Origin: a virus
DNA length: 47,041 bases
Reading direction: 5' to 3' (one strand)
Virus record (IMG/VR): IMGVR_UViG_3300045988_142192
Span: 1-47,041 of that record
Part shown: one piece after another, positions 1-47,041 of the stretch
Numbering within the stretch: position 1 is the stretch's first letter
Layout: each line of letters begins with the position of its first letter
Notes under the pieces: model-generated
Seen by the model: the letters and a program-made list of their open reading frames with translations, nothing else
Told to the model about the DNA's origin: nothing
Databases searched by the model: none
Translations under genes and position numbers: made by a program

Positions 1-55
1 GTCAAAACTGTGATGGGAGAAATATAAAGACATTTCCCTTAAAATAAAGTTTTTA
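1..55. repeat. Terminal overlap copy 1 (identical to 46987-47041)
   Basis: The exact 55-nt string GTCAAAACTGTGATGGGAGAAATATAAAGACATTTCCCTTAAAATAAAGTTTTTA occurs at both window ends. Confidence 0.95.
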
Positions 56-607: not shown

Positions 608-728
608 AAAATAAAGGTGGGGATAATTCCTCACCTACTACTATTACTACTAATATTTTTATCATTTTTATATAAATTCTTTATAATATATTTTTCTTAT
701 ATTGTAGCAGATTTTAAGGGGGTTGACT

Positions 729-1700
729 ATGTTTAAACCGTTAATAGATGCTTTATTTGATGCAGTTCCAGTTGCTTGGGATATGTATTCTAATTTTATA
801 TATAGATTAGTTACTGGGAGAAAATTTGAAGATACTATTGAAGTTTTGGAGGGGGATATAATGGAAGTTGAAAATATAGTTAAATATGAATATATACCAA
901 CAGAGGAAATTAAAGATATGTCAAAAGAAATGAATGTAATTAAGTTTATCTTTATTGAAGGTGAAAAGGAAGGAATAAAAGCCTGTATAGGATATGACAT
1001 AGAAGGCAATTTAAAAAGTTTTGATATGTTAGAAGGTCATACAATGGTTGGAGGTGCTTCTAGGTGGGGCAAATCTAGCTTTTTAAATGTATTTATAACT
1101 AATATAACTAAAACATATACGAGAAATGAAGTTTGTTTTTTAGGTTGTGATTATAAAAAAGCAGATGTTTATTATTTTAGAAATTATAATAATTTTTTAG
1201 GCATGAGTACAAATAAAAAAGAATTTATAGCTCAAATAAAATGGCTAGAAAAAGAAATGAATAAAAGGGCTGATATATTAGACGAAGCTAATTGTAGGAA
1301 TGTAATAAATTATAATAAAAAACATGATACTAAAATTAGTTATATAATAGTTGTTATAGATGAACTTATTCAAGTTGTAAGTGATAAAGATTGCAAAGAT
1401 ATTCTTCATAAAGTTATGAGTAAGTGTGCGAGTTATGGAATTTACTTTTTATTAGCTACACAAGATTGCACAAAAGAAACTATAGGTAGATGTAAAATGA
1501 ATTGTAGTCAGATAGTAGGATTTCATACATTCGACCAAACAGACAGTGATACTTTAATTGGCAAGGGTTATGATTTACAAGATATAAATGTAAAAGGTAG
1601 ATGCAAAATAAAAAATAGTGAAGGTGTAGTTGAAACTCAAATATTTTATTTGGAAGAAGATGAAATAGATAAATTATTAAAACCTTATTTAAGAGAATAG
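729..1700 (+). CDS. FtsK/SpoIIIE-family DNA translocase-like ATPase (motor domain only, 323 aa)
   Basis: Walker A GGASRWGKSS, Walker B YIIVVIDEL, and an FtsK-like GIYFLLATQ..GRCKMNCSQIVGF block. The AAGGGGG SD sits 6 nt before ATG 729; the ORF track uses TTG 723. Confidence 0.8.
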   Translation: MFKPLIDALFDAVPVAWDMYSNFIYRLVTGRKFEDTIEVLEGDIMEVENIVKYEYIPTEEIKDMSKEMNVIKFIFIEGEKEGIKACIGYDIEGNLKSFDMLEGHTMVGGASRWGKSSFLNVFITNITKTYTRNEVCFLGCDYKKADVYYFRNYNNFLGMSTNKKEFIAQIKWLEKEMNKRADILDEANCRNVINYNKKHDTKISYIIVVIDELIQVVSDKDCKDILHKVMSKCASYGIYFLLATQDCTKETIGRCKMNCSQIVGFHTFDQTDSDTLIGKGYDLQDINVKGRCKIKNSEGVVETQIFYLEEDEIDKLLKPYLRE

Positions 1701-1712
1701 GAGGTGTTTTGA

Positions 1713-2105
1713 ATGGCTTATACTTACAGATTTAAAGATAAGTATGATAACACAATTTATGTAGGCTATACGGGGCAGAAAATGGGCGAGAGAATGAATC
1801 AACATTTTACTAAAGGGCACTTGCCAAAAGAATGTTATTCTAGTGTGGTTAAAATAGAGTATATCAAGTGGAAAACTAAATCAGATGCTCAAGTTATGGA
1901 AGTTTATTTCATCAATAAGTATAAGCCAAAATTTAATAAACAAGACAAAAGAAGTGATACCCTTACAATACAACTAGATGAAAAGGAATGGAAAACTTAT
2001 CAAGTGTTTAAAAAACAAATTGAAAGCAGCACTCCTTACTGGGGATGTTTAACTTATATATTAATAATTGCTTTAATATATGCAATATTCCAGATGATAG
2101 CTTAG
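1713..2105 (+). CDS. GIY-YIG nuclease domain protein with a C-terminal transmembrane helix (130 aa)
   Basis: YTYRF..IYVGYTG..ERMNQH..MEVYFINKYKPKFN matches the GIY-YIG Tyr/Tyr/Arg/Glu/Asn pattern. The C-terminus LTYILIIALIYAIFQMI is hydrophobic. Confidence 0.7.
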   Translation: MAYTYRFKDKYDNTIYVGYTGQKMGERMNQHFTKGHLPKECYSSVVKIEYIKWKTKSDAQVMEVYFINKYKPKFNKQDKRSDTLTIQLDEKEWKTYQVFKKQIESSTPYWGCLTYILIIALIYAIFQMIA

Positions 2106-5658: not shown

Positions 5659-6378
5659 ATGAGTTATACAATTGTAGATAATGAAATAATTAGAGCAGAT
5701 TTAAAATTTACGCCGAAAATAGTCTTAATAGCTATATTAAGTTATCATAATAAAGAAAAGGGGTACTCTTATCCAAGCCATAGTGATTTGATGCGAGATT
5801 GCTGCATAAAAGATAAGAATACGCTTATAAAAGCTATAAAAGAACTAGAAAATTTAGGATATTTAAGAAAAGAAACTATTAAAGGGGTTGGAAATAGATA
5901 TTACATTAAGGATGTTGTGAAAAACAATACTACTGAAAAAATAAGTAGTGTGAAAAACCCAACTACACCAGTAGGAAAAACCCAACTGGAGGTGTATGAA
6001 AAACCCAACACAATAAATACTAAAACAAATACTAAAACAAATATTAATAATAAAAAGAAACAAATATACAAAGATTTATCTTTTATAGATTTAAGCTTAG
6101 TAAAAGTAACAGAAGAAGAGTATACCAAGTTAATCGAGTTAGCGAAAGGTGATACTGAATTGATACATGATAAAATGCTAAGTTTGGAAGTAGGGATAGC
6201 TAACAAGAAAAAAAAGTATTTAGGATATAAAAATCATTATTTAACATTAAGGCAGTGGATAAACAAAGATAACAAAAAAACACCTACTGCAATAGGTGCT
6301 GAAAATAAAAATATTAAAGTTAATCCTAGTATATGCAACAATAGAAGAAAATATACTCAAAGTTGCGATATTGGGTAG
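5659..6378 (+). CDS. Phage replication initiator / replisome organiser (winged-helix N-terminus, 239 aa)
   Basis: The N-terminus (PKIVLIAILSYHNKEKGYSYPSHSDLMRDCCIKDKNTLIKAIKELENLGYL) is winged-helix-like. Iterons lie inside the linker-coding region. A primase-helicase gene follows. Confidence 0.6.
   Translation: MSYTIVDNEIIRADLKFTPKIVLIAILSYHNKEKGYSYPSHSDLMRDCCIKDKNTLIKAIKELENLGYLRKETIKGVGNRYYIKDVVKNNTTEKISSVKNPTTPVGKTQLEVYEKPNTINTKTNTKTNINNKKKQIYKDLSFIDLSLVKVTEEEYTKLIELAKGDTELIHDKMLSLEVGIANKKKKYLGYKNHYLTLRQWINKDNKKTPTAIGAENKNIKVNPSICNNRRKYTQSCDIG
5917..6011. repeat. Iteron array inside the initiator gene
   Basis: GAAAAACCCAAC occurs at 5952, 5975 and 5998, with exact 23-bp phasing. A degenerate copy, GAAAAACAATAC, is at 5919. 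Confidence 0.8.
6015..6044. repeat. Tandem 12-bp repeat AAATACTAAAAC x2.5
   Basis: Read directly from the sequence. It encodes NTKTNTKTNI in the initiator linker. Confidence 0.8.
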
Positions 6379-6389
6379 GGGGAAGATAT

Positions 6390-8192
6390 ATGAATTTTAA
6401 AAATATAATTGATGATATAAAAAAATATATAGATGCTGAACAGGTTAAAAATAAAATAGCTACTGATTTAGGATTAAAATTTAAAAGCAATAAATGTTTA
6501 TGTTTTAATCATTCTGAAAAACATGAATCTATGAGTTATTATGCTAAAGGTAAATATTATAAATGTTTTAGTTGTGGTTTCCAGTACGACATATTTAATC
6601 ACTATCAACAATACTATAATTTATCATTCCTAGAGGCTGTAAAATCCATTGTAAGAGATTTTAATTTAAATATAAATATAACTATCAACGAGTCAGATAG
6701 AAAGCCTAAAAAACCTCCTACAAAGCACAATAGTTATAATGATGCAATATTAAATTATTGCAATAAAAGAAGCATATCGAAAGCTACATTAGATTATGTT
6801 AGAGTTAAGGGAAATTTTAACAATAAAGATGGAAATAGTGTATGTTTTGAATATAGAAATGAATTAGGAGAACATTTATGTAATAAGTATAGATTTACTT
6901 CCAAAAATGCTAATCCTAAAATGAAATTTGAAGAAGGGACTAATGTAAATACTTTATTCAATATGGATAAGGTAAATATATCAGAGCCTTTATTAATAAC
7001 AGAAGGTGAATTTGATTGTTTAAGTGCTATAGAGGCAGGCTTTAAAAATGCAGTATCAATACCAAGTGGAGTAAATTCAACAAATCAATGGATTACAAGT
7101 AACTGGACTTTTATTGAACAGTTTGAAGAAGTAATCATATGGTTTGATAATGATGAGCCTGGAATAAAAGGTGCTAGAGAAGTATTTAATAGACTTCCTA
7201 ACGCTAGTGTAAAAATAGTTAGATGCGAAGTAGCTAATGATATAAATGAATTATTGCACAAGTATGGGAAGTTAGCAGTATTAAAACAAATAGAAAAAGC
7301 TTCTACACCTGTACTGGAAGGCGTTGCAACGCTTGATATGATAGAGGACTTTGATGTACATGAAGCAGAAACTCTAAAAACTGGTATAGATTACATTGAT
7401 GATAAGCTTGTGGGAATGGTATTTGGAAGTCTTAATGTATTAAGTGGTAGAAATGGTAGTGGTAAATCAACTATATTAAATCAAATATATATTGCAGAAG
7501 CTATTGCTCAAGGTTATAAGACATTTCTATTTAGTGGTGAGTTGATAGGGGGGAATGTTAAGTATTGGCTACTTCAAACTTTAGCAAATGAGGAACAATT
7601 TGCCGAGTATACTGCTAAAGATGGTCATAAATATAAAAAAGTTACTATTCAAGCAAAAGAAAAAATAGTCAATGATATGAAGGATAGATTTTTCTTATAT
7701 GATAGTGATGATTATAGAATTGAAGCTATAATTGAAAAAATGACGGTATTAGCTAAAAGATATGGAGTGAGGGTGTTTGTTATAGACAACCTTATGACAG
7801 TCGAAAGTAGTTTAAAGGATAAATATGAAGCTGAAACTGATATAGTTAAGAAATTAAAGAATTTTGCTAAAAAGTATAATGCTTTAGTTCATTTAGTTGC
7901 ACATCCTAGAAAGTCTATGAATGATGAAATTGAAAAAGACGATGTAGCAGGAAGTGCTAATATAACTAACTTAGCTGATTATGTAACTACAATATCAAGA
8001 GCGAAAGATGATGTAGTTGAATATGATGCAATACTTAAAATACTGAAGAATAGACATACAGGAGTAAACGTAGGTAAAAAGTTAATGTTTAATATAGAGA
8101 GAAAAAGATTTTACAGTGGTGAAACTGGAAAAGAGTTAAACAAAAGATATTTAGATTTATGGGAGGAAGTTCAAGGGACATGGGAAGATTAG
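6390..8192 (+). CDS. Bifunctional primase-helicase (zinc finger + Toprim + DnaB/RecA-like ATPase, 600 aa)
   Basis: CLCFNH..H...CFSCG zinc finger, Toprim ITEGEFDCLS...WFDNDEPG, Walker A GRNGSGKST and Walker B VFVIDNLM. The GGGGGAAG SD precedes ATG 6390. Confidence 0.85.
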   Translation: MNFKNIIDDIKKYIDAEQVKNKIATDLGLKFKSNKCLCFNHSEKHESMSYYAKGKYYKCFSCGFQYDIFNHYQQYYNLSFLEAVKSIVRDFNLNINITINESDRKPKKPPTKHNSYNDAILNYCNKRSISKATLDYVRVKGNFNNKDGNSVCFEYRNELGEHLCNKYRFTSKNANPKMKFEEGTNVNTLFNMDKVNISEPLLITEGEFDCLSAIEAGFKNAVSIPSGVNSTNQWITSNWTFIEQFEEVIIWFDNDEPGIKGAREVFNRLPNASVKIVRCEVANDINELLHKYGKLAVLKQIEKASTPVLEGVATLDMIEDFDVHEAETLKTGIDYIDDKLVGMVFGSLNVLSGRNGSGKSTILNQIYIAEAIAQGYKTFLFSGELIGGNVKYWLLQTLANEEQFAEYTAKDGHKYKKVTIQAKEKIVNDMKDRFFLYDSDDYRIEAIIEKMTVLAKRYGVRVFVIDNLMTVESSLKDKYEAETDIVKKLKNFAKKYNALVHLVAHPRKSMNDEIEKDDVAGSANITNLADYVTTISRAKDDVVEYDAILKILKNRHTGVNVGKKLMFNIERKRFYSGETGKELNKRYLDLWEEVQGTWED

Positions 8193-41057: not shown

Positions 41058-41115
41058 AACAAATATAAAGATACATATTTAATCCCTAGATAATGTTTAT
41101 TTTATTGGTAAAATA

Positions 41116-41124
41116 TGGTATAAT
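41116..41124 (+). promoter_or_regulatory. Extended -10 promoter TGGTATAAT with no ORF downstream
   Basis: Read directly from the sequence. It is preceded by the TTGGTAAAATAT 12-mer, which recurs at 41599-41610. Confidence 0.4.
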
Positions 41125-41130
41125 ATAATA

Positions 41131-41291
41131 AAAACTAATGATAGTTTTAAAAAATAACATTACACAAAGTAAGAATATATTATCTTTATTTTAATCTTGT
41201 ATTTTTTTATGTTTTTATATTTTTAAAGTTTTGTAATTGTTTTGTGATTTAGTTAGAAAAAAGCTATTGTCTTGTTGCGATAGCTTTTTTT
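41131..41291 (+). ncRNA. Candidate non-coding transcript 1 (~160 nt)
   Basis: Bounded by the extended -10 promoter at 41116-41124 and the terminator at 41257-41291. It contains no SD-preceded ORF. Confidence 0.25.
41257..41291 (+). terminator. Intrinsic terminator
   Basis: AAAAAAGCTAT-12 nt-ATAGCTTTTTT. Confidence 0.65.
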
Positions 41292-41324
41292 ACTTGCTAC
41301 AATATAAGTATATCCAACTTTAAT

Positions 41325-41352
41325 TTGCAACACTCGAGTTGTAGAGTATAAA
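41325..41352 (+). promoter_or_regulatory. Promoter TTGCAA-16-TATAAA
   Basis: Read directly from the sequence. No ORF lies downstream before the terminator at 41418-41448. Confidence 0.4.
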
Positions 41353-41358
41353 TTCAAC

Positions 41359-41448
41359 AGTTGATTGGCTAAAGATTACAATATCAACAAACAACCATAT
41401 AAGTTCAGTAAAAAGGGGAAGCTTTAAGGGGATGAAGCTTCTTTTTTT
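41359..41448 (+). ncRNA. Candidate non-coding transcript 2 (~90 nt)
   Basis: A promoter-to-terminator unit with no ATG. It has an internal GTTGAT...ATCAAC stem. Confidence 0.25.
41418..41448 (+). terminator. Intrinsic terminator
   Basis: GAAGCTT-10 nt-AAGCTTC followed by TTTTTTT. Confidence 0.65.
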
Positions 41449-41461
41449 ATGCTTGAAGTTA

Positions 41462-41493
41462 GACAAATAAAAAAGACTGCTAAAAGCAATCTT
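41462..41493 (-). terminator. Minus-strand intrinsic terminator
   Basis: On the minus strand, AAGATTGC-tttta-GCAGTCTT (one G-U pair) followed by TTTTTATTTG. Confidence 0.45.
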
Positions 41494-41609
41494 CTTTATT
41501 GACGATATAATTAATAACAAAAGAAAGGGGACACTAAAACATAGCTAAATTTTAGTACATATATATAATTCTATAAAAGCAGTTAAAATCCTTTTTATTT
41601 GGTAAAATA

Positions 41610-41638
41610 TTGACAAAATTTATTATGAAAAATATAAT
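41610..41638 (+). promoter_or_regulatory. Perfect consensus sigma-A promoter TTGACA-17-TATAAT
   Basis: -35 at 41610-41615 and -10 at 41633-41638, with an exact 17-bp spacer. No ORF lies downstream, and it faces the 3' end of the minus-strand island. Confidence 0.6.
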
Positions 41639-41644
41639 TAAGTT

Positions 41645-41763
41645 AGTACAATAAGTTTATAACTATTGTCTAGATTTTGAAATTCCGCAAGATATCATTA
41701 CATCCAAATTAAATTCTAATTTTTTAATGGCTTATACTTAATCTGTATAGGCTATTTTAATTT
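41645..41763 (+). ncRNA. Candidate non-coding transcript 3 (~118 nt), convergent with the minus-strand island
   Basis: It runs from the consensus promoter to the hairpin GGCTTATAC-ttaatct-GTATAGGCT plus ATTTTAATTT. It overlaps the stop codon of the minus-strand gene 41757-41930. Confidence 0.35.
41729..41763 (+). terminator. Intrinsic terminator (possibly bidirectional)
   Basis: A 9-bp stem with two G-U pairs and a 7-nt loop, followed by a T-rich tail. Confidence 0.5.
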
Positions 41764-41930
41764 GACTTACACACACAACATCTATCATATTCAAATCTTT
41801 GATATTTACCACATAATCTACAATATTGAAAATTATTATTATAACTACTATCGCTATAAAAATTATCTTGATGATTTCTTTCCTCGTAACAGCCTCTATT
41901 ATCCTTATCTTGATTAAATATATTAAACAT
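41757..41930 (-). CDS. small Cys-containing zinc-ribbon-like protein (57 aa)
   Basis: Hand-translated: MFNIFNQDKDNRGCYEE...YCRLCGKYQRFEYDRCCVCKSN. The SD (AAAGGG) is weak. Confidence 0.4.
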   Translation of the reverse strand: MFNIFNQDKDNRGCYEERNHQDNFYSDSSYNNNFQYCRLCGKYQRFEYDRCCVCKSN

Positions 41931-42022
41931 ATCTTACACGCCCTTTAAAATCTAATTTAAAAGGTATTATAGACACATCTGAATATATTTATGCATTAAA
42001 ATGTTTAAATAAAATGATATTT

Positions 42023-42193
42023 TTATTCAATAATTTCTGATATTTGATTATATATATCAATTAATAATTTATCAATTTCTTCTCTTTTATTGTTTAATTC
42101 TCCCAAGAATCCATTATATTCTTCCATTGAAAAATACAATAAGAATTGTTTTAATAACTTTGATTCTTCATCTGTTAGAACTATCCTAACCAT
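42023..42193 (-). CDS. hypothetical protein (56 aa)
   Basis: Hand-translated: MVRIVLTDEESKLLKQFLLYF... A TGGAGG SD lies 6 nt upstream. Confidence 0.45.
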   Translation of the reverse strand: MVRIVLTDEESKLLKQFLLYFSMEEYNGFLGELNNKREEIDKLLIDIYNQISEIIE

Positions 42194-42224
42194 AACCAAC
42201 CTCCATTTAATTAAAAGAATTATT

Positions 42225-42518
42225 TTATCTAATGCTATTTAAAATATCTGTTATTTTCCAAACTCCATTTTCCCAAGTTATAAAATCATACTTACCTAAT
42301 TTAACTTTATCATATAAACTATGGTCTTTTATCGGATAACTACCTATAACCCAAGTATCATAACCACTTGTAGTTATGCCATTAGTTTCCTTATCTCTTA
42401 TTGGTAATTCTTTGAATAACTCTACTGTTCCTTTTTCGTGTCTTGCGATGTATTTAAACCCTAAATAATAGGCGTATTTTAATTCAACATATTCTTTATC
42501 TGTCAATTTGATATTCAT
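42225..42518 (-). CDS. hypothetical protein (97 aa)
   Basis: ORF-track ORF with a GAAAGGA SD. Confidence 0.6.
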   Translation of the reverse strand: MNIKLTDKEYVELKYAYYLGFKYIARHEKGTVELFKELPIRDKETNGITTSGYDTWVIGSYPIKDHSLYDKVKLGKYDFITWENGVWKITDILNSIR

Positions 42519-42552
42519 AATTTAAATCCTTTCTAATAAAAATTATATTTCA

Positions 42553-42696
42553 CTAAAAACACATATCTTTGCATTCACAGTTATAACAATTATGACCTTC
42601 TTGATTATCACAATGACATTCTTTTTCTTTATCCGCATCCATACCACATTGTACATAACAACACTTACCACATTCTGTATTTAATATCTCACACAT
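42553..42696 (-). CDS. Cys-rich peptide (47 aa, 11 Cys)
   Basis: Hand-translated: MCEILNTECGKCCYVQCGMDADKEKECHCDNQEGHNCYNCECKDMCF. A GGTGA SD is present. Confidence 0.45.
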   Translation of the reverse strand: MCEILNTECGKCCYVQCGMDADKEKECHCDNQEGHNCYNCECKDMCF

Positions 42697-42714
42697 TACA
42701 TTCACCACATTAAA

Positions 42715-42891
42715 TTATATTTTATCTTTCTCAATAACTATCTTTCCTTCTGATTCAGTTATTTTTATTTGTCTATCTTCTATGCTAATACCTAACGTTT
42801 CAATAACCCAACTTGGTAATGATAATTTATAAATGTAAGAGTTGGGTCTATCTTTAACCTTTTGTATACTTATATTTCTAATTGCTTCCAT
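42715..42891 (-). CDS. AbrB/MazE/SpoVT-type looped-hinge-helix DNA-binding protein (58 aa)
   Basis: Hand-translated: ..YIYKLSLPSWVIETLGISIEDRQIKITESEGKIVIEK. A strong TAGGAGGG SD is present. Confidence 0.55.
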   Translation of the reverse strand: MEAIRNISIQKVKDRPNSYIYKLSLPSWVIETLGISIEDRQIKITESEGKIVIEKDKI

Positions 42892-42945
42892 AGTCCCTCC
42901 TAATTAATTGGTAAGGGCTTTTTATAGTGAGCCACCAATTTTGTA

Positions 42946-43107
42946 TTAAACTCTTTCTATTCTTGTTATAGTCCATTCTTTATTTTGATTATCCCATTGT
43001 TCAAAATTTTCTCTAGCTTCTTCTTTAGTGTTACAAGTTACTGTGCAGTTGAATTCTTCCCCAACTTTATTTCCTCTTTTTCTGTAATAAACATTATATT
43101 CTCTCAT
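42946..43107 (-). CDS. hypothetical protein (53 aa)
   Basis: Hand-translated: MREYNVYYRKRGNKVGEEFNC... An AAGGAAGG SD is present, and the consensus promoter at 43152-43180 lies upstream. Confidence 0.45.
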   Translation of the reverse strand: MREYNVYYRKRGNKVGEEFNCTVTCNTKEEARENFEQWDNQNKEWTITRIERV

Positions 43108-43151
43108 TCTTAATACCTTCCTTTTCTCTTTTATTTAACTTTCTTAATTAT

Positions 43152-43180
43152 ATTATATCTTGTTAGTAACTAACAGTCAA
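43152..43180 (-). promoter_or_regulatory. Minus-strand promoter TTGACT-17-TATAAT with the operator TGTTAG-TAA-CTAACA
   Basis: -35 at 43175-43180 and -10 at 43152-43157 (as complement). The palindrome at 43161-43175 fills the spacer. Confidence 0.65.
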
Positions 43181-43203
43181 TACTTATATTATTGTTTTTA
43201 TTT

Positions 43204-43683
43204 CTATATTGCATTTATATCGTTTAAATGTTGCTCAAAGCTTAAGTGATTAGCATAAACTTCTTTTATAGCTTCTATTCTTCTGTTAAGTCTTTTAAGT
43301 TCTTTTCCTTCTTCTTTTTTGAATATAGCTTGTAATTCACTATTTGTTTCTACTCTTGCATCTCTAGTTGCTCCAAGTTTTTTATTTGCATTTCTGTCAG
43401 CTATGTATATATATCCATCTATTAAAAAGCAATTATTTGAATGTCTGTTATCAACTAATATTTCTTTTCCGTTCATTATTAAAGTTTTTACTGTTCTTCC
43501 TTCTCCCATTTCAACTTTAACATCTGTTCCTCTACTTGTTCTATATTCTATCATTTTATTTTCTCCTTTTCTTATTAGAGAATGTGCTAATGATAATGCT
43601 AATCTGAAAGTTGCTTTATAGCTATCACCTTTTCTTATTATTTTTTTAGTTATTTCATGTGCTTTCTTCATAACATTTCTCAT
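43204..43683 (-). CDS. hypothetical protein (159 aa)
   Basis: ORF-track ORF with an AAGGAGG SD. It has a helical N-terminus, MKKAHEITKKIIRKGDSYKATFRLALSLAH. Confidence 0.6.
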   Translation of the reverse strand: MRNVMKKAHEITKKIIRKGDSYKATFRLALSLAHSLIRKGENKMIEYRTSRGTDVKVEMGEGRTVKTLIMNGKEILVDNRHSNNCFLIDGYIYIADRNANKKLGATRDARVETNSELQAIFKKEEGKELKRLNRRIEAIKEVYANHLSFEQHLNDINAI

Positions 43684-43720
43684 TTTTACATCCTCCTTAT
43701 TTATTAATTATTATACTTTA

Positions 43721-43749
43721 ATTATATGTTAGTACCTAACAAAAGTCAA
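43721..43749 (-). promoter_or_regulatory. Minus-strand promoter TTGACT-17-TATAAT with the operator TGTTAG-TAC-CTAACA
   Basis: -35 at 43744-43749 and -10 at 43721-43726 (as complement). The palindrome at 43727-43741 lies inside the spacer. Confidence 0.65.
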
Positions 43750-43771
43750 CTATATTTATAAACTTTTTTAA

Positions 43772-43903
43772 TTATTTTTCTACAACTAAAGCAATTATTT
43801 TTTTATTTTGGTCAATTATAACTTTCTTGCCTTCTACTAAATGCCATTTCCAATAATTTGGCACTTCGATTATTTTATCATTTTCAAGTAATTTTATTTT
43901 CAT
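43772..43903 (-). CDS. hypothetical protein (43 aa)
   Basis: Hand-translated: MKIKLLENDKIIEVPNYWKWHLVEGKK... A strong AAAGGAGGA SD is present. Confidence 0.45.
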   Translation of the reverse strand: MKIKLLENDKIIEVPNYWKWHLVEGKKVIIDQNKKIIALVVEK

Positions 43904-43960: not shown

Positions 43961-43988
43961 ATTATATTGTATATGAGTTTATCCACAA
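43961..43988 (-). promoter_or_regulatory. Leftward promoter TTGTGG-16-TATAAT overlapping the DnaA boxes
   Basis: -10 complement at 43961-43966. The -35 complement at 43983-43988 lies within the first two DnaA boxes. Confidence 0.45.
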
Positions 43989-44005
43989 TATCCACATAAT
44001 CCACA
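43979..44005. promoter_or_regulatory. Three abutting DnaA boxes
   Basis: TTATCCACA (perfect consensus), ATATCCACA and TAATCCACA sit head to tail. Confidence 0.7.
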
Positions 44006-44043
44006 AATATTGTTTATAGCTTAAACCGTTGAAAATACTGCAC

Positions 44044-44152
44044 ACGTTCCGTGGAATTGACGGTATAAGTAAAAATATAATACCCACACATTCCGTGGAA
44101 TTGACGGGGTACATTCCGTGGAATTGACGGGGTTAATTCGATGGAATTGAAC
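44044..44152. repeat. Iteron array TTCCGTGGAATTGACGG x3 exact plus one degenerate copy
   Basis: Cores lie at 44047, 44091 and 44114. The 23-mer ACATTCCGTGGAATTGACGGGGT is exactly tandem at 44088-44133. A degenerate copy is at 44137-44152. Confidence 0.85.
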
Positions 44153-44162
44153 AAAGATAGAT

Positions 44163-44188
44163 AAGTTATTATAGGGAAGTTATTATAG
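44163..44188. repeat. Direct repeat AAGTTATTATAG x2 in the AT-rich tract
   Basis: Copies at 44163-44174 and 44177-44188. Confidence 0.7.
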
Positions 44189-44227
44189 ATATATATATAA
44201 TAAAAAAATAGCTTTTAATAAAAAACA

Positions 44228-44256
44228 TTTACATATTTTATTTGATAGTGTATAAT
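44228..44256 (+). promoter_or_regulatory. Rightward promoter TTTACA-17-TATAAT
   Basis: -35 at 44228-44233 and -10 at 44251-44256. It reads into gene 44287. Confidence 0.55.
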
Positions 44257-44286: not shown

Positions 44287-44622
44287 ATGAATATCAATTT
44301 TGAAATGGCTATAAGTAATAACATTGATGTAAAAGATATAACTCTTATAAGTTACTTATCTTTAATATCAGAAAAAGAAAAATTAGGTGAAGAGTTTGAA
44401 TTGCCATATAACAGAATAATAAATGATTTGCCTATTATATTTAATAGTAAAAGTTATGAAGCTAATTCCGTTAAGCTTAGAAGAATGTTAGATAAAGAAG
44501 GTATGAAAAAATTTATAACAAGGGAAATTTTAAAAAAGGGTAGAGAATTTGGAACTGTTGTTTTATTTAAGCTTAATAAATCAAATATAGAGAAACTTAA
44601 TGTAAAAGGAATAGTTAAATAA
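44287..44622 (+). CDS. Origin-adjacent small protein (111 aa), possible winged-helix DNA binder
   Basis: ATG 44287 follows an AAGGAGG SD. The track's TTG 44242 lies inside the promoter. It is the first gene after the iterons. Confidence 0.45.
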   Translation: MNINFEMAISNNIDVKDITLISYLSLISEKEKLGEEFELPYNRIINDLPIIFNSKSYEANSVKLRRMLDKEGMKKFITREILKKGREFGTVVLFKLNKSNIEKLNVKGIVK

Positions 44623-44638: not shown

Positions 44639-45517
44639 ATGAAATATATACACGGCTTTTTAAGTAGTAGATTGAAAGAGGAAAAAATAAGCCATGATGA
44701 AAGCTTAGTTATAAGATATTTATTAAATTTTATAAATAGTAACAAAATGGAAAAAATACTTGTAAACGGTGAATTTTATTATTGGGTAAAATATGAAAAA
44801 GTTGCAACAGATTTAGATATATTAGGAATTAAAAAGCAGGCTATAAGTGATATGTTAATTTATGATTTAGGAGAAAAGCCAAGTGATTGGGAGGAAAGGC
44901 TTAACTCAATGAAAGAAAGTAGTAGAAAGAAAAAAATGAAATCTAAATTTATAGGAGTATTTAAAAGATATACTAAAAAAGATGCAGAAGGTACTAAGTC
45001 TTATTTTGCACCTACTGAAAAATTATATTCTTTATTGCCAAACATAACAGAAGATGATGAAGATATGAAAAATAAAAAAGCTTCTACTGTGCCACCAGTA
45101 AAAGCAGATAATAAAAACAATGATTTTAATAATAGTATACCACAAAACGAAGAAAAAAATGCAGATAAAAATGAAAAAAATAAAGAAAGTGAAGTTGTGG
45201 AAATTATAAACAATAGTTGTGTAAATATCAGAAAGCAAGACTTGAAAAAATGTGAAGAAGAATTTACTGATATAGATAAATTGAAAGAAGCTTTAGAAAT
45301 ATGCGAGGTCAATAATTCTCATGGTATAAAAGCTTTAAGAATGGCTTATAAATATGGAAATGTTAATATCAATAATGCGAACAAGAAACAAAGTACAATA
45401 TTTATGGCAGATAGTAAGGTTATTGTAGATGGAAAATTAAAAAGCGTAGCTGATATGACTGAAAAAGAATTTGAGCAAAAGCTTCGAGAAAAATGGGGAA
45501 GAAACTTTATAGGTTAA
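44639..45517 (+). CDS. Candidate plasmid-type replication initiator (292 aa)
   Basis: Its position follows the DnaA boxes, iterons and AT-rich tract. The N-terminus (HDESLVIRYLLNFINSNKMEKILVNGEFYYWVKYEKVATDL) is winged-helix-like, followed by a low-complexity linker and a C-terminal domain. I recognised no family signature. Confidence 0.4.
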   Translation: MKYIHGFLSSRLKEEKISHDESLVIRYLLNFINSNKMEKILVNGEFYYWVKYEKVATDLDILGIKKQAISDMLIYDLGEKPSDWEERLNSMKESSRKKKMKSKFIGVFKRYTKKDAEGTKSYFAPTEKLYSLLPNITEDDEDMKNKKASTVPPVKADNKNNDFNNSIPQNEEKNADKNEKNKESEVVEIINNSCVNIRKQDLKKCEEEFTDIDKLKEALEICEVNNSHGIKALRMAYKYGNVNINNANKKQSTIFMADSKVIVDGKLKSVADMTEKEFEQKLREKWGRNFIG

Positions 45518-46827: not shown

Positions 46828-47013
46828 ATGGAGAAAGAAATATTAGAACTTGCTAAAAATATAGCACCATCTACACAGTTATCAGTAGAACAAGTAGCTG
46901 GTGTTATTTATAAAATTATTGATAGTCAAAAGAAGTCAAGAATTAAATTTGAAATAGATGAAGAATATATTCAAAAAGCTATTTGGGTCAAAACTGTGAT
47001 GGGAGAAATATAA
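46828..47013 (+). CDS. hypothetical protein (61 aa)
   Basis: ORF-track ORF with a CAGGAGGA SD. Its 3' end lies in the 55-bp overlap, so it also appears at 1-27. Confidence 0.5.
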   Translation: MEKEILELAKNIAPSTQLSVEQVAGVIYKIIDSQKKSRIKFEIDEEYIQKAIWVKTVMGEI

Positions 47014-47041
47014 AGACATTTCCCTTAAAATAAAGTTTTTA
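46987..47041. repeat. Terminal overlap copy 2 (identical to 1-55)
   Basis: Exact 55-nt match to the window start. It includes the last 27 nt of ORF 46828-47013. Confidence 0.95.

What the first reader, a model, noticed from the sequence alone, without database searches (positions are those of the whole stretch)
43961..44256. A plasmid-style oriV (three tandem DnaA boxes, 23-bp-phased iterons, an AT-rich tract and a rep promoter) inside a tailed-phage genome
Directly visible in the sequence:
- Three head-to-tail 9-mers, TTATCCACA / ATATCCACA / TAATCCACA, at 43979-44005. The first is the perfect DnaA-box consensus.
- Three exact copies of TTCCGTGGAATTGACGG at 44047, 44091 and 44114. The last two are part of an exactly tandem 23-mer.
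- A degenerate fourth copy at 44137.
- An AT-rich tract containing AAGTTATTATAG twice.
- A TTTACA-17-TATAAT promoter reading into two genes (111 aa and 292 aa).
- A leftward promoter (TTGTGG-16-TATAAT) that overlaps the DnaA boxes.

Established knowledge: DnaA boxes plus iterons plus an AT-rich tract plus an adjacent rep gene is the canonical layout of theta-type iteron plasmids (pSC101, F oriS, P1 oriR).

Inference: this phage is maintained as a low-copy plasmid prophage. The host DnaA and a phage Rep would jointly control both replication and the divergent promoters.
Basis: partly seen in the sequence, partly recalled or inferred. Interest (0 to 1): 0.75.

Follow-up and report, generated by a model that had tools for sequence, protein, structure and literature searches.

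The report
Phage replication origin with DnaA boxes
A 300-base gap between genes in a common human-gut phage is very probably a replication origin of the plasmid type served by the two genes next to it, but nothing shows that the phage lives as a plasmid, and a near-identical relative sits integrated in a host chromosome.

Summary

The origin reading is well supported:
- The 210-bp block from the DnaA boxes to the AT-rich repeats is the most conserved stretch of the locus. It is always 210 bp and 97-99% identical, while the flanking genes and promoters are 81-98% identical.
- Sister phages carry four different iteron sequences in the same number, phase and place.
- The motif "last iteron + AACAAAGAT + AT-rich short repeats" recurs inside the initiator genes of two Clostridial plasmids and of a temperate phage. 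Those initiators share the 292-aa protein's N-terminal domain.
- That domain otherwise occurs in phage replisome organizers. The C-terminal domain occurs behind RepA_N and DnaD_N domains.

The plasmid-prophage inference is not supported:
- No partition, repressor or integrase gene was found.
- A 99%-identical relative is joined to a Peptostreptococcaceae chromosome at a 19-bp sequence inside the "AT-rich tract", and empty sites exist.
- How integration happens without an integrase is unexplained.

The genome also holds a second organizer gene with its own internal iterons, next to the primase-helicase.

Verdict: a new variant of a known kind, of moderate interest.

The parts
43772..43903 (-). 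43-aa gene, the first gene of the leftward operon of small, highly variable genes
   Evidence: ORF. Conserved in relatives. No Pfam or PHROG match.
43961..43988 (-). Leftward promoter: -10 TATAAT (43961-43966), 16-nt spacer, -35 TTGTGG (43983-43988) inside DnaA box 1
   Evidence: Read from the sequence. The -35 is weak, so the consensus scan listed only a neighbouring 9-of-12 match.
43979..44005 (+). Three head-to-tail DnaA-box 9-mers (one perfect, two with one mismatch)
   Evidence: 0 of 100 shuffles. At least two tandem boxes, one of them perfect, are kept in 21 of 21 relatives, with either iteron type.
44006..44046 (.). Spacer between the boxes and iteron 1; all but the last base invariant
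   Evidence: All but the last column is invariant in 13 phage variants.
44047..44153 (+). Four iterons: a 17-bp core at 44047, 44091 and 44114 (exact) and at 44137 (degenerate), in 23-bp register (44 = 2 x 22 between the first two)
   Evidence: Sister phages have other sequences in the same number, phase and place.
44150..44158 (+). AACAAAGAT, the junction motif that follows the last iteron
   Evidence: The same motif follows the last iteron in the origins inside the initiator genes of pCd18_3, p6CSt (with one extra A) and phage L017, and in cassette B.
44163..44188 (+). Two AT-rich direct repeats AAGTTATTATAG (14-bp period); candidate DNA-unwinding element
   Evidence: Equivalent 14-17-bp AT-rich repeats follow the iterons in all compared origins.
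44196..44214 (.). TATAATAAAAAAATAGCTT, matching 18 of 19 bases of the sequence at which a sister phage is joined to the host chromosome (attP-like core). It is preceded by a variable (TA)n run.
   Evidence: This segment is the least conserved part of the intergenic region.
44228..44256 (+). Rightward early promoter TTTACA-17-TATAAT
   Evidence: 11 of 12. Retained in the integrated form.
44287..44622 (+). 111-aa winged-helix protein, the first rightward gene
   Evidence: AlphaFold2 pLDDT 82. Best folds are PadR/LmrR and RTP, with weak scores. Homologues occur only in this phage group. The gene in the same position in cassette B is an HTH_36/DnaD_N/RepL-type winged helix.
44639..45517 (+). 292-aa initiator-family protein: N-domain 1-135 (replisome-organizer type), linker, C-domain about 185-290
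5659..6378 (+). Second organizer-like gene (HTH_36) with internal iterons: 3 x GAAAAACCCAAC at 23-bp spacing (5952-6009) and 12-mer repeats (6015-6047). It lies next to the primase-helicase gene at 6363-8192.

Best explanation
The segment 43979-44190 is a replication origin of the iteron type belonging to a 47-kb myovirus of a human-gut Peptostreptococcaceae host. It sits at the point where the leftward and rightward early operons diverge. The first two rightward genes encode its proteins.

Proposed mechanism (inferred, not shown):
1. The 292-aa protein binds the four 23-bp-phased repeats through its N-terminal winged-helix domain. This is the same domain that recognises the internal origins of related replisome organizers. 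The 111-aa winged-helix protein may assist or modulate it.
2. Host DnaA occupies the three tandem boxes 42 bp to the left.
3. Together they bend and load the DNA so that the adjoining AT-rich repeats (AACAAAGAT + 2 x AAGTTATTATAG, 15% G+C) melt.
4. The C-terminal domain, which elsewhere follows RepA_N or DnaD_N domains, recruits the helicase-loading machinery.
5. DnaA on box 1 would at the same time cover the -35 of the leftward promoter.

The origin most likely serves theta replication of the circularised genome. It stands beside a second, internal origin in the HTH_36 organizer gene next to the primase-helicase. The data do not settle whether the DnaA-box origin is used early in lytic growth or for episomal carriage. 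A 19-bp sequence in the AT-rich tract just right of the origin is where a sister phage is found recombined into the host chromosome.
For: 1. The elements are real and non-random.
2. Purifying selection acts on the non-coding block. It is exactly 210 bp and 96.7-99.0% identical to the window in seven variants. The comparison values are 82-94% for the AT tract plus promoter, 83-92% for the left flank, 89-98% for gene 111 and 81-87% for gene 292.
3. Sister phages with the same gene order carry four iteron types: A, TTCCGTGGAATTGACGG; B, CATCAtATGATAAGACGGG; C, type A inverted; D, GGCTGAACGTACCCCAACCATTC. All are phased at 22-23 bp, and the complete arrays have about four copies (the C and D contigs begin inside the array). 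All are followed by an AAAGAT-type junction (ATAGAT in type D) and 2-3 AT-rich direct repeats.
4. The same cis signature lies inside the initiator genes of plasmids pCd18_3 and p6CSt and of a temperate phage whose organizer directly precedes DnaB. Their proteins share the 292-aa N-domain at 37-41% identity.
5. N-domain homologues (E 1e-20 to 1e-27) carry Phg_2220_C at their C-terminus. Foldseek against viral models finds a Phg_2220_C protein at E 7e-6, plus weak matches to replisome organizers. C-domain homologues carry RepA_N or HTH_36/DnaD_N at their N-terminus.
6. The cassette-B protein in the position of the 111-aa protein matches HTH_36 (1e-9) and RepL (above cut-off), and DnaD_N just below cut-off.
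7. At least two tandem DnaA boxes are kept in 21 of 21 relatives.
8. The layout matches established iteron origins: phased iterons, DnaA sites and an AT-rich unwinding element with short repeats, as in RK2 (PMC5043065).
Against: - No binding, unwinding or replication has been shown.
- The 292-aa and 111-aa proteins match no Pfam or PHROG family themselves.
- Foldseek against PDB gave only generic winged-helix matches. The RepA N-terminal domain 4pql ranked third at E 0.55.
- The internal origins of the related plasmids and phage have no DnaA boxes next to them, so DnaA may not be needed for firing. The boxes belong to the conserved left segment that also holds the leftward promoter, so they could be purely regulatory.
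- Iteron type does not track the small protein. The 111-aa and 113-aa proteins are 56% identical yet their iterons are unrelated. The unrelated 78-aa protein goes with iterons of type A.
- The cumulative GC-skew minimum at 43.95-44.05 kb coincides with the switch in gene orientation and is not independent evidence.
- The phage already has a conventional organizer plus primase-helicase module.
Confidence: 0.6

Rival explanations
1. One reading: the same element is the maintenance origin (oriV) of a low-copy plasmid prophage. It would be analogous to P1 oriR, with the second, internal origin serving lytic growth.
For: - No integrase or recombinase was found in any ORF long enough to encode one.
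- There are two origin-initiator pairs, as in P1.
- N-domain homologues serve in Clostridial phage-plasmids. pCd18_3 also has a DnaA-box-like + iteron + AT-repeat locus near parA.
- All long contigs read for two phage variants (8 of 8 for the window's own 43-aa protein, and the 23 read for P0125; none longer than 50 kb among 113 blocks) are free 42-49-kb phage-length contigs, never embedded in host DNA.
- One copy is binned in a Clostridium MAG as a separate 48.9-kb contig.
Against: - No partition, addiction or repressor gene was recognised.
- A 99.4-99.9% identical phage is joined to the host chromosome at a 19-bp identity in the AT tract.
- Free circular contigs are what virion or replicating DNA of any phage gives in metagenomes.
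Confidence: 0.15
2. The repeats are not an origin but the arm of an attachment site. They would bind recombination proteins (a directionality factor or an unrecognised recombinase), and the AT-rich tract would hold the crossover core.
For: - attL-type contigs (L005, L008) and seven empty sites share TATAATAAAAAAATAACTT with the phage, 30-40 bp right of the repeats.
- The 12-mer AAGTTATTATAG resembles the reverse complement of the core (by reading).
- An HTH_17 (excisionase-type) protein is encoded 1 kb downstream.
- The iterons, the AT tract and the two genes are exchanged together as a cassette.
Against: - No integrase was found.
- The same iteron + AACAAAGAT + AT-repeat signature lies inside initiator genes of plasmids and of a phage that has its own serine recombinase elsewhere.
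- The 19-mer is the least conserved part of the region. It matches the host site perfectly only in one phage lineage.
- The cassette-B homologue of the 292-aa protein lacks the C-domain, so no shared catalytic domain exists.
Confidence: 0.1
3. The repeats and the DnaA boxes are transcriptional operators of a genetic switch. A phage winged-helix repressor (the 111-aa protein) and host DnaA would set the balance between the divergent promoters, with no role in replication.
For: - The region lies between divergent promoters.
- 17-bp sites at a 23-bp period recall the lambda operators (established knowledge).
- The iteron core TTCC-GT-GGAA is partly palindromic, which suits a dimeric winged helix.
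- DnaA box 1 overlaps the leftward -35.
Against: - The iterons overlap neither promoter. They lie 59 bp from the leftward -35 and 75 bp from the rightward -35.
- They are direct repeats.
- The spacers are invariant too.
- The homologous arrays inside coding sequences of initiator genes cannot be promoter operators.
Confidence: 0.12

Closest known systems
RK2 oriV, P1 oriR, F oriS and pSC101 (iteron-type theta origins of Gram-negative plasmids and of the P1 plasmid prophage)
   Same: The parts and their order are the same: DnaA boxes at one edge, 3-5 directly repeated 17-22-bp iterons phased with the DNA helix, an AT-rich unwinding region with short repeats (13-mers in RK2), and the rep gene alongside (PMC5043065).
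   Different: - The neighbouring protein is not a Rep_3/TrfA/RepA-type initiator. It belongs to the Firmicute phage replisome-organizer and RepA_N/DnaD_N circle.
- The iterons do not overlap the rep promoter, so iteron-mediated autorepression is not evident.
- Three boxes abut with no spacer.
- No partition locus or copy-control iteron array exists elsewhere.
Internal origins of phage replisome organizers (lambda O/ori-lambda, SPP1 G38P/oriL, Phg_2220_C proteins); nearest examples pCd18_3, p6CSt and the temperate phage of locus L017
   Same: - The N-terminal domain is homologous (37-41% identity).
- The cis signature is the same: 3-5 iterons of 22-23 bp, then AACAAAGAT (AACAAAAGAT in p6CSt), then AT-rich 14-17-bp direct repeats.
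   Different: - Here the origin lies upstream of the genes rather than inside the linker of the organizer gene.
- It has a DnaA-box trio that the others lack.
- The C-terminal domain is not Phg_2220_C.
- A separate small winged-helix gene precedes the 292-aa gene.
- No helicase or loader gene follows.
RepA_N-family initiators of Firmicute plasmids (pSK41/pTZ2162 RepA)
   Same: The 292-aa C-domain is homologous to the C-terminal parts of proteins whose N-terminus is RepA_N. The logic of two domains, one for binding the origin and one for recruiting host factors, is the same (from my own knowledge of Schumacher et al. 2014, not re-read here).
   Different: The N-domain is not RepA_N (no Pfam hit; 4pql only E 0.55 in Foldseek). 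RepA_N iterons lie inside the rep gene.
attP sites of integrase-type temperate phages
   Same: A 19-bp identity between phage and chromosome at the exact point where a phage-host contig switches from one to the other. Empty sites exist in other samples.
   Different: - No integrase gene was found.
- Only one junction was recovered.
- The core is poorly conserved among phage variants.
- The core is a low-complexity AT-rich 19-mer that also seeds assembly chimeras.

Membership tests
Iteron-type theta origin with DnaA boxes (P1 oriR, F oriS, pSC101, RK2 oriV) | Three or more direct repeats of 17-22 bp phased with the helical repeat | tested here: met
   Three exact copies and one degenerate copy, spaced 44, 23 and 23 bp. 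None elsewhere with up to 3 mismatches; 0 expected.
Iteron-type theta origin with DnaA boxes (P1 oriR, F oriS, pSC101, RK2 oriV) | DnaA box or boxes at the edge of the origin | tested here: met
   Trio at 43979-44005 with one perfect consensus box, unique in the window. Conserved in 21 of 21 relatives. DnaA binding itself was not tested.
Iteron-type theta origin with DnaA boxes (P1 oriR, F oriS, pSC101, RK2 oriV) | AT-rich unwinding element next to the iterons | tested here: inconclusive
   15% G+C tract with two 12-mer repeats directly after iteron 4. Equivalent repeats occur in related origins. Unwinding is not testable here.
Iteron-type theta origin with DnaA boxes (P1 oriR, F oriS, pSC101, RK2 oriV) | Adjacent gene for an initiator of the plasmid Rep (Rep_3/TrfA/RepA WH1-WH2) families that binds the iterons | tested here: not met
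   No Pfam hit for the 111-aa or 292-aa protein. Homology leads to phage organizers and to RepA_N/DnaD_N partners instead.
Iteron-type theta origin with DnaA boxes (P1 oriR, F oriS, pSC101, RK2 oriV) | Autonomous replication of origin plus rep | not testable with these tools
   Needs cloning in a suicide vector and transformation of a permissive host.
Plasmid prophage / phage-plasmid (P1, N15, c-st, pCd18_3) | Partition or addiction system (ParAB, ParMR, TubZR, toxin-antitoxin) | tested here: not met
   None among about 75 ORFs scanned against Pfam. Only an FtsK/SpoIIIE-like ATPase of unknown role was found.
Plasmid prophage / phage-plasmid (P1, N15, c-st, pCd18_3) | Extrachromosomal in the lysogen; no chromosomal junctions | tested here: not met
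   Host-phage junction contigs L005 and L008 for a 99.4-99.9% identical phage, plus empty sites. No junction was seen for the window's exact variant.
Plasmid prophage / phage-plasmid (P1, N15, c-st, pCd18_3) | No integrase | tested here: met
   No tyrosine, serine or DDE recombinase domain in any ORF. The only unassigned ORFs of 165 aa or more are the 292-aa protein, a 210-aa ThyX-like protein and the tape-measure and fibre-position proteins.
Phage replisome organizer with cognate origin (lambda O, SPP1 G38P, Phg_2220_C proteins) | N-terminal origin-binding domain homologous to that of organizers | tested here: met
   phmmer E 3e-27 to P0146 and 6e-22 to P0154, both with Phg_2220_C at the C-terminus. 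Foldseek against BFVD gives E 7e-6 to a Phg_2220_C protein.
Phage replisome organizer with cognate origin (lambda O, SPP1 G38P, Phg_2220_C proteins) | Iteron array plus AT-rich repeats of the family type | tested here: met
   The junction motif AACAAAGAT and the AT-rich direct repeats are shared with pCd18_3, p6CSt (one extra A) and L017.
Phage replisome organizer with cognate origin (lambda O, SPP1 G38P, Phg_2220_C proteins) | Origin embedded in the organizer gene; DnaD-like or Phg_2220_C C-domain; helicase or loader gene next door | tested here: not met
   - The origin is extragenic.
- The C-domain is different.
- The next genes are an HTH_17 protein and small ORFs.
- The primase-helicase lies beside the other organizer, at 6363-8192.
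attP of a temperate phage | Common core shared with a chromosomal attB; both junctions; phage-encoded integrase | tested here: inconclusive
   - A 19-bp core is shared in the L009-type phage and matches 18 of 19 bases in the window.
- attL was found. attR was not found.
- No integrase was found.

The most novel reading that the evidence does not exclude
A widespread gut myovirus with no recognisable recombinase nevertheless enters the host chromosome at a defined 19-bp sequence that lies in the unwinding tract of its own DnaA-box/iteron origin. Integration would then separate the origin (left at one prophage end) from its promoter and initiator genes (at the other end). This would switch the origin off in the lysogen, and excision would rebuild it. 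The recombination would be carried out by a host enzyme, by the phage's Erf/Rad52 and ERCC4 proteins acting on short homology, or by an unknown activity of the origin-binding proteins.
Probability: 0.12. Interest if true: 0.8.

Novelty: new variant of a known kind. Interest (0 to 1): 0.45.

Why it matters
- This phage group is common in human-gut metagenomes. One variant of its 111-aa protein is indexed in 113 blocks of the collection. None of its early proteins has a name.
- The analysis assigns a function to two unannotated proteins.
- It defines a recognisable origin signature (22-23-bp iterons, AACAAAGAT, AT-rich short repeats). The signature links Clostridial phage-plasmids, temperate phages and this group.
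- It shows a version of that origin that has moved out of the initiator gene and acquired host DnaA boxes. This offers a concrete case for how a Firmicute phage may couple its replication, or its leftward transcription, to the host initiator.
- A practical use is a compact origin-plus-rep cassette for hard-to-transform gut Peptostreptococcaceae.
- The integrated relative without any integrase is an open problem worth a targeted experiment.

Tried and rejected
- Megablast of 42.0-47.0 kb and tblastn of both proteins against 50,697 phage records: no match.
- Pfam and PHROGs on the 111-aa and 292-aa proteins: nothing.
- Profile search of PDB sequences with the 292-aa family: only weak PadR/Lrp winged-helix matches.
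- Foldseek against PDB with both models: nothing below E 0.03.
- GC skew as origin evidence: rejected, because the minimum coincides with the switch in gene orientation and the maximum is only 2.4 kb away.
- The 12-mer AAGTTATTATAG as a significant motif on its own: rejected.
- Search for the second junction (attR) in JGI metagenomes and IMG/VR: no hits.
- The bare 19-mer is too low in complexity to search with: more than 120 unrelated hits.
- I first took L077 for a second element inserted at the same site. It proved to be an assembly chimera between a Bacteroides SusD locus and the Clostridial locus, joined at a shared 21-mer.
- Single exact iteron matches in five unrelated viral contigs are chance.
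- The STAND-like ATPase beside L005 was first read as a defence gene. It is the chromosomal PRK06851 family.
- Xer/dif-type integration was considered by eye and not supported, because there is no dif-like 28-mer at the site. This is not a formal test.
- Rfam scan of 40.9-44.4 kb: no RNA family.
- Literature searches for integrase-less tailed prophages and for DnaA-box/iteron phage-plasmids gave no directly relevant paper.
Full report
**What the window is.** The 47,041-base window carries a 55-bp direct repeat at its two ends, so it is a circular assembly of 46,986 bp with 27.7% G+C. It encodes a contractile-tailed phage: large terminase, SPP1-type portal, Mu-F-like protein, tail sheath, baseplate J and an amidase endolysin. 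It also encodes a conventional replication and recombination set. This comprises an HTH_36 organizer-like protein (5659-6378), a fused primase-helicase (6363-8192), SSB, an Erf/Rad52 annealing protein and an ERCC4 nuclease, together with an FtsK/SpoIIIE-like ATPase. All genes read rightward except a block of eight small genes at 41.76-43.90 kb. The finding sits in the 383-bp gap where the two directions diverge. No phage in the INPHARED collection resembles the region. Close relatives abound in human-gut metagenomes, always as contigs of 40-49 kb.

**Check of the observation.**
- The DnaA-box trio is unique. No shuffle of the window gives one, although isolated near-consensus 9-mers occur at the chance rate.
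- The 17-mer occurs three times exactly and nowhere else, even with three mismatches, against an expectation of zero. With the degenerate fourth copy it forms a 23-bp register.
- The rightward promoter scores 11 of 12.
- The leftward promoter has a perfect -10 and a weak -35 that lies inside DnaA box 1.

**The neighbouring proteins.** Neither protein matches Pfam or PHROGs. An exhaustive phmmer search of 1.8 billion representatives found 227 relatives of the 292-aa protein and showed that it has two modules.
- Residues 1-135 form a winged-helix domain with paired beta hairpins, modelled by AlphaFold2 at pLDDT about 97. This domain recurs in proteins whose C-terminus is the Phg_2220_C domain of phage replisome organizers. 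One of these (P0146, E 3e-27) lies directly upstream of a DnaB helicase gene in a temperate phage that has its own serine recombinase and cI/cro pair. Foldseek against viral models confirms the link: a Phg_2220_C protein at E 7e-6, and weaker matches named replisome organizer or replication initiator.
- Residues 140-292 recur in proteins whose N-terminus is RepA_N or HTH_36/DnaD_N.

Both halves therefore occur in initiator architectures.

The 111-aa protein has relatives only inside this phage group. Its model (pLDDT 82) is a winged helix with a C-terminal helix, closest to PadR/LmrR and the replication terminator protein, at weak scores. Residues 6-51 faintly resemble the start of the 292-aa N-domain. 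In a sister phage the gene in the same position encodes an 88-aa protein. That protein matches HTH_36 and RepL above their cut-offs and DnaD_N just below its cut-off.

**Comparative evidence that the DNA is an origin.** There are three lines.
1. Constraint. In seven variants compared with the window, the block from the first DnaA box to the second AT-rich repeat is always exactly 210 bp and 96.7-99.0% identical. The segment to its right (AT tract, promoter, leader) is 82-94% identical, the left flank 83-92%, gene 111 89-98% and gene 292 81-87%. The spacers are as conserved as the repeats, as expected for a structure in which geometry matters.
2. Cassette variation. Phages with the same gene order carry four different iteron sequences, one of them the window's repeat in inverted orientation. 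All keep a 22-23-bp phase, the complete arrays have about four copies, and all are followed by an AAAGAT-type junction (ATAGAT in the fourth type) and two or three AT-rich direct repeats of 14-17 bp. All 21 relatives that show the region keep at least two tandem DnaA boxes, one of them perfect, whichever iteron type they have.
3. The same signature elsewhere. It lies inside the initiator genes of two Clostridial plasmids in PLSDB and of the temperate phage above.
   - pCd18_3 of C. difficile, which has parA.
   - p6CSt of C. botulinum.
   - In each, three to five 22-23-bp repeats lie between the N-domain and the Phg_2220_C domain.
   - The repeats are followed by AACAAAGAT (AACAAAAGAT in p6CSt) and AT-rich repeats such as GATTATTCTATTAAT.
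   - This is the classical arrangement of lambda O and other organizers, whose origin lies within the gene (PMC5043065).

In the window's group the same origin type lies outside the genes and has acquired DnaA boxes.

**What remains inferred.**
- Which protein binds the repeats is not shown. By analogy with the internal origins, the N-domain of the 292-aa protein is the best candidate.
- Iteron type does not follow the small protein. The 111-aa and 113-aa proteins are 56% identical yet their repeats are unrelated, and an unrelated 78-aa protein goes with the window's repeat type.
- The role of DnaA is also inferred. The related internal origins have no boxes. The boxes belong to the conserved segment that holds the leftward promoter, so they may regulate that promoter, help open the origin, or do both.
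- The GC-skew minimum at the locus is not independent evidence.

**The plasmid-prophage inference.** I found no partition, addiction, repressor or recombinase gene in any ORF scanned. No unassigned ORF is long enough for a canonical integrase, apart from the 292-aa protein, a 210-aa ThyX-like protein and the proteins in the tape-measure and tail-fibre positions.

Two contigs from different assemblies (L005, L008) carry the promoter, gene 111 and the exact 294-aa protein of a sister phage, but lack the boxes and iterons. Their left halves are 99.2-99.8% identical to a 65-kb chromosomal contig. That contig reads tig-clpP-clpX-lon ... acetyltransferase | PRK06851 ATPase-DUF881. The PRK06851 family is chromosomal in Romboutsia, Terrisporobacter and C. 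difficile. Phage and chromosome share TATAATAAAAAAATAACTT exactly at the switch point. Seven contigs show the empty site. In the window the corresponding sequence is at 44196-44214, with one mismatch.

Several cautions apply.
- Only one junction was found.
- The 19-mer is of low complexity, and I found one contig that is plainly an assembly chimera formed at a 21-base extension of it.
- The phage and host sequences share only 19 bases, the two junction contigs come from different assemblies, and both carry a private host SNP six bases from the core. I therefore regard the junction as real, possibly from a single lysogen lineage.
- The 19-mer is the least conserved part of the intergenic region, and it matches the host perfectly only in the lineage found integrated.
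- All long contigs read for the window's own variant and for another, widely sampled variant are free phage-length molecules.

How a phage without an integrase integrates is unexplained.

**A second origin.** Inside the HTH_36 organizer gene there are three copies of GAAAAACCCAAC at 23-bp spacing (5952-6009), followed by repeats of AAATACTAAAAC (6015-6047). They lie immediately upstream of the primase-helicase gene. The phage thus has two origin-initiator pairs, the arrangement known from P1 (oriR and oriL). pCd18_3 likewise has a second locus with DnaA-box-like repeats, 22-bp iterons and AT-rich repeats near parA. This keeps the episomal reading alive as a minority view.

**Verdict.** The origin interpretation is the best supported one (about 0.6). 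It is a new variant of a known kind: an organizer-type iteron origin moved out of its gene, combined with tandem DnaA boxes, and served by a two-gene module whose domains are not yet in the family databases. The plasmid-prophage lifestyle is not supported. The most interesting open point is integration without an integrase at a site inside the origin's AT-rich tract.

Noticed in passing
window 5952-6047 (inside gene 5659-6378): A second iteron array: 3 x GAAAAACCCAAC at 23-bp spacing, then 2.8 x AAATACTAAAAC. It lies inside the HTH_36 organizer-like gene, next to the primase-helicase, and is probably the phage's conventional internal origin.
   Followed up: partly
L005 3146-3172, L008 1191-1217, L024 9878-9900; window 44196-44214: A sister phage (99.4-99.9% identical) is joined to a Peptostreptococcaceae chromosome between an acetyltransferase gene and a PRK06851 ATPase gene, at a shared 19-bp sequence. 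Seven empty sites were recovered. No integrase exists in the phage, and the second junction was not found.
   Followed up: partly
L077 1-210, with L031 and L096: A public contig that looked like a second insertion at the same site is an assembly chimera. It joins a Bacteroides SusD locus to the Clostridial locus at a shared AT-rich 21-mer. This is a warning for any junction inferred at this sequence.
   Followed up: yes
L020 3137-3362 (plasmid pCd18_3): A separate origin-like locus in a C. difficile phage-plasmid near parA. It has 2-3 DnaA-box-like TTATCAACA repeats at 21-bp spacing, 3.7 x 22-bp GTGCAAAAAGTGGTGCTTTGGTA, and then AT-rich TATAGAGAA repeats. The order of parts is the same as in the window.
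   Followed up: partly
window 41058-41756: A 700-bp stretch with no ORF over 66 aa lies between the endolysin gene and the leftward genes. It holds a perfect TTGACA-17-TATAAT promoter (41610-41638, + strand) and a terminator-like hairpin (41726-41756). No Rfam family matches it.
   Followed up: partly
window 723-2105: An FtsK/SpoIIIE-like ATPase (325 aa) is followed by a small GIY-YIG protein whose C-terminal stretch looks hydrophobic (by eye). The pair is conserved in every relative for which the region was seen. Its role is unknown.
   Followed up: no
window 41757-43903; L001, L006, L157-L170: The leftward operon is hypervariable. Relatives carry from 2 to 10 small genes there, while the 43-aa and 57-aa genes at its two ends are usually kept. 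None has a family match.
   Followed up: no
L003 1-30, L014-L016, L018 1-90: Many metagenomic contigs of relatives begin inside the iteron array, so the repeats break short-read assemblies. The origins of this phage group will therefore be under-represented in contig collections.
   Followed up: no
window 44302-44439 and 44666-44824: Residues 6-51 of the 111-aa protein weakly resemble residues 10-62 of the 292-aa N-domain, with a shared DLPI[IL] motif (hhalign probability 27%). This hints that the small gene is a diverged partial duplicate.
   Followed up: partly
window 1-55 and 46987-47041: An exact 55-bp terminal overlap shows that the window is a circularly closed assembly (46,986 bp), with its start and end placed arbitrarily inside a 61-aa gene.
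   Followed up: yes
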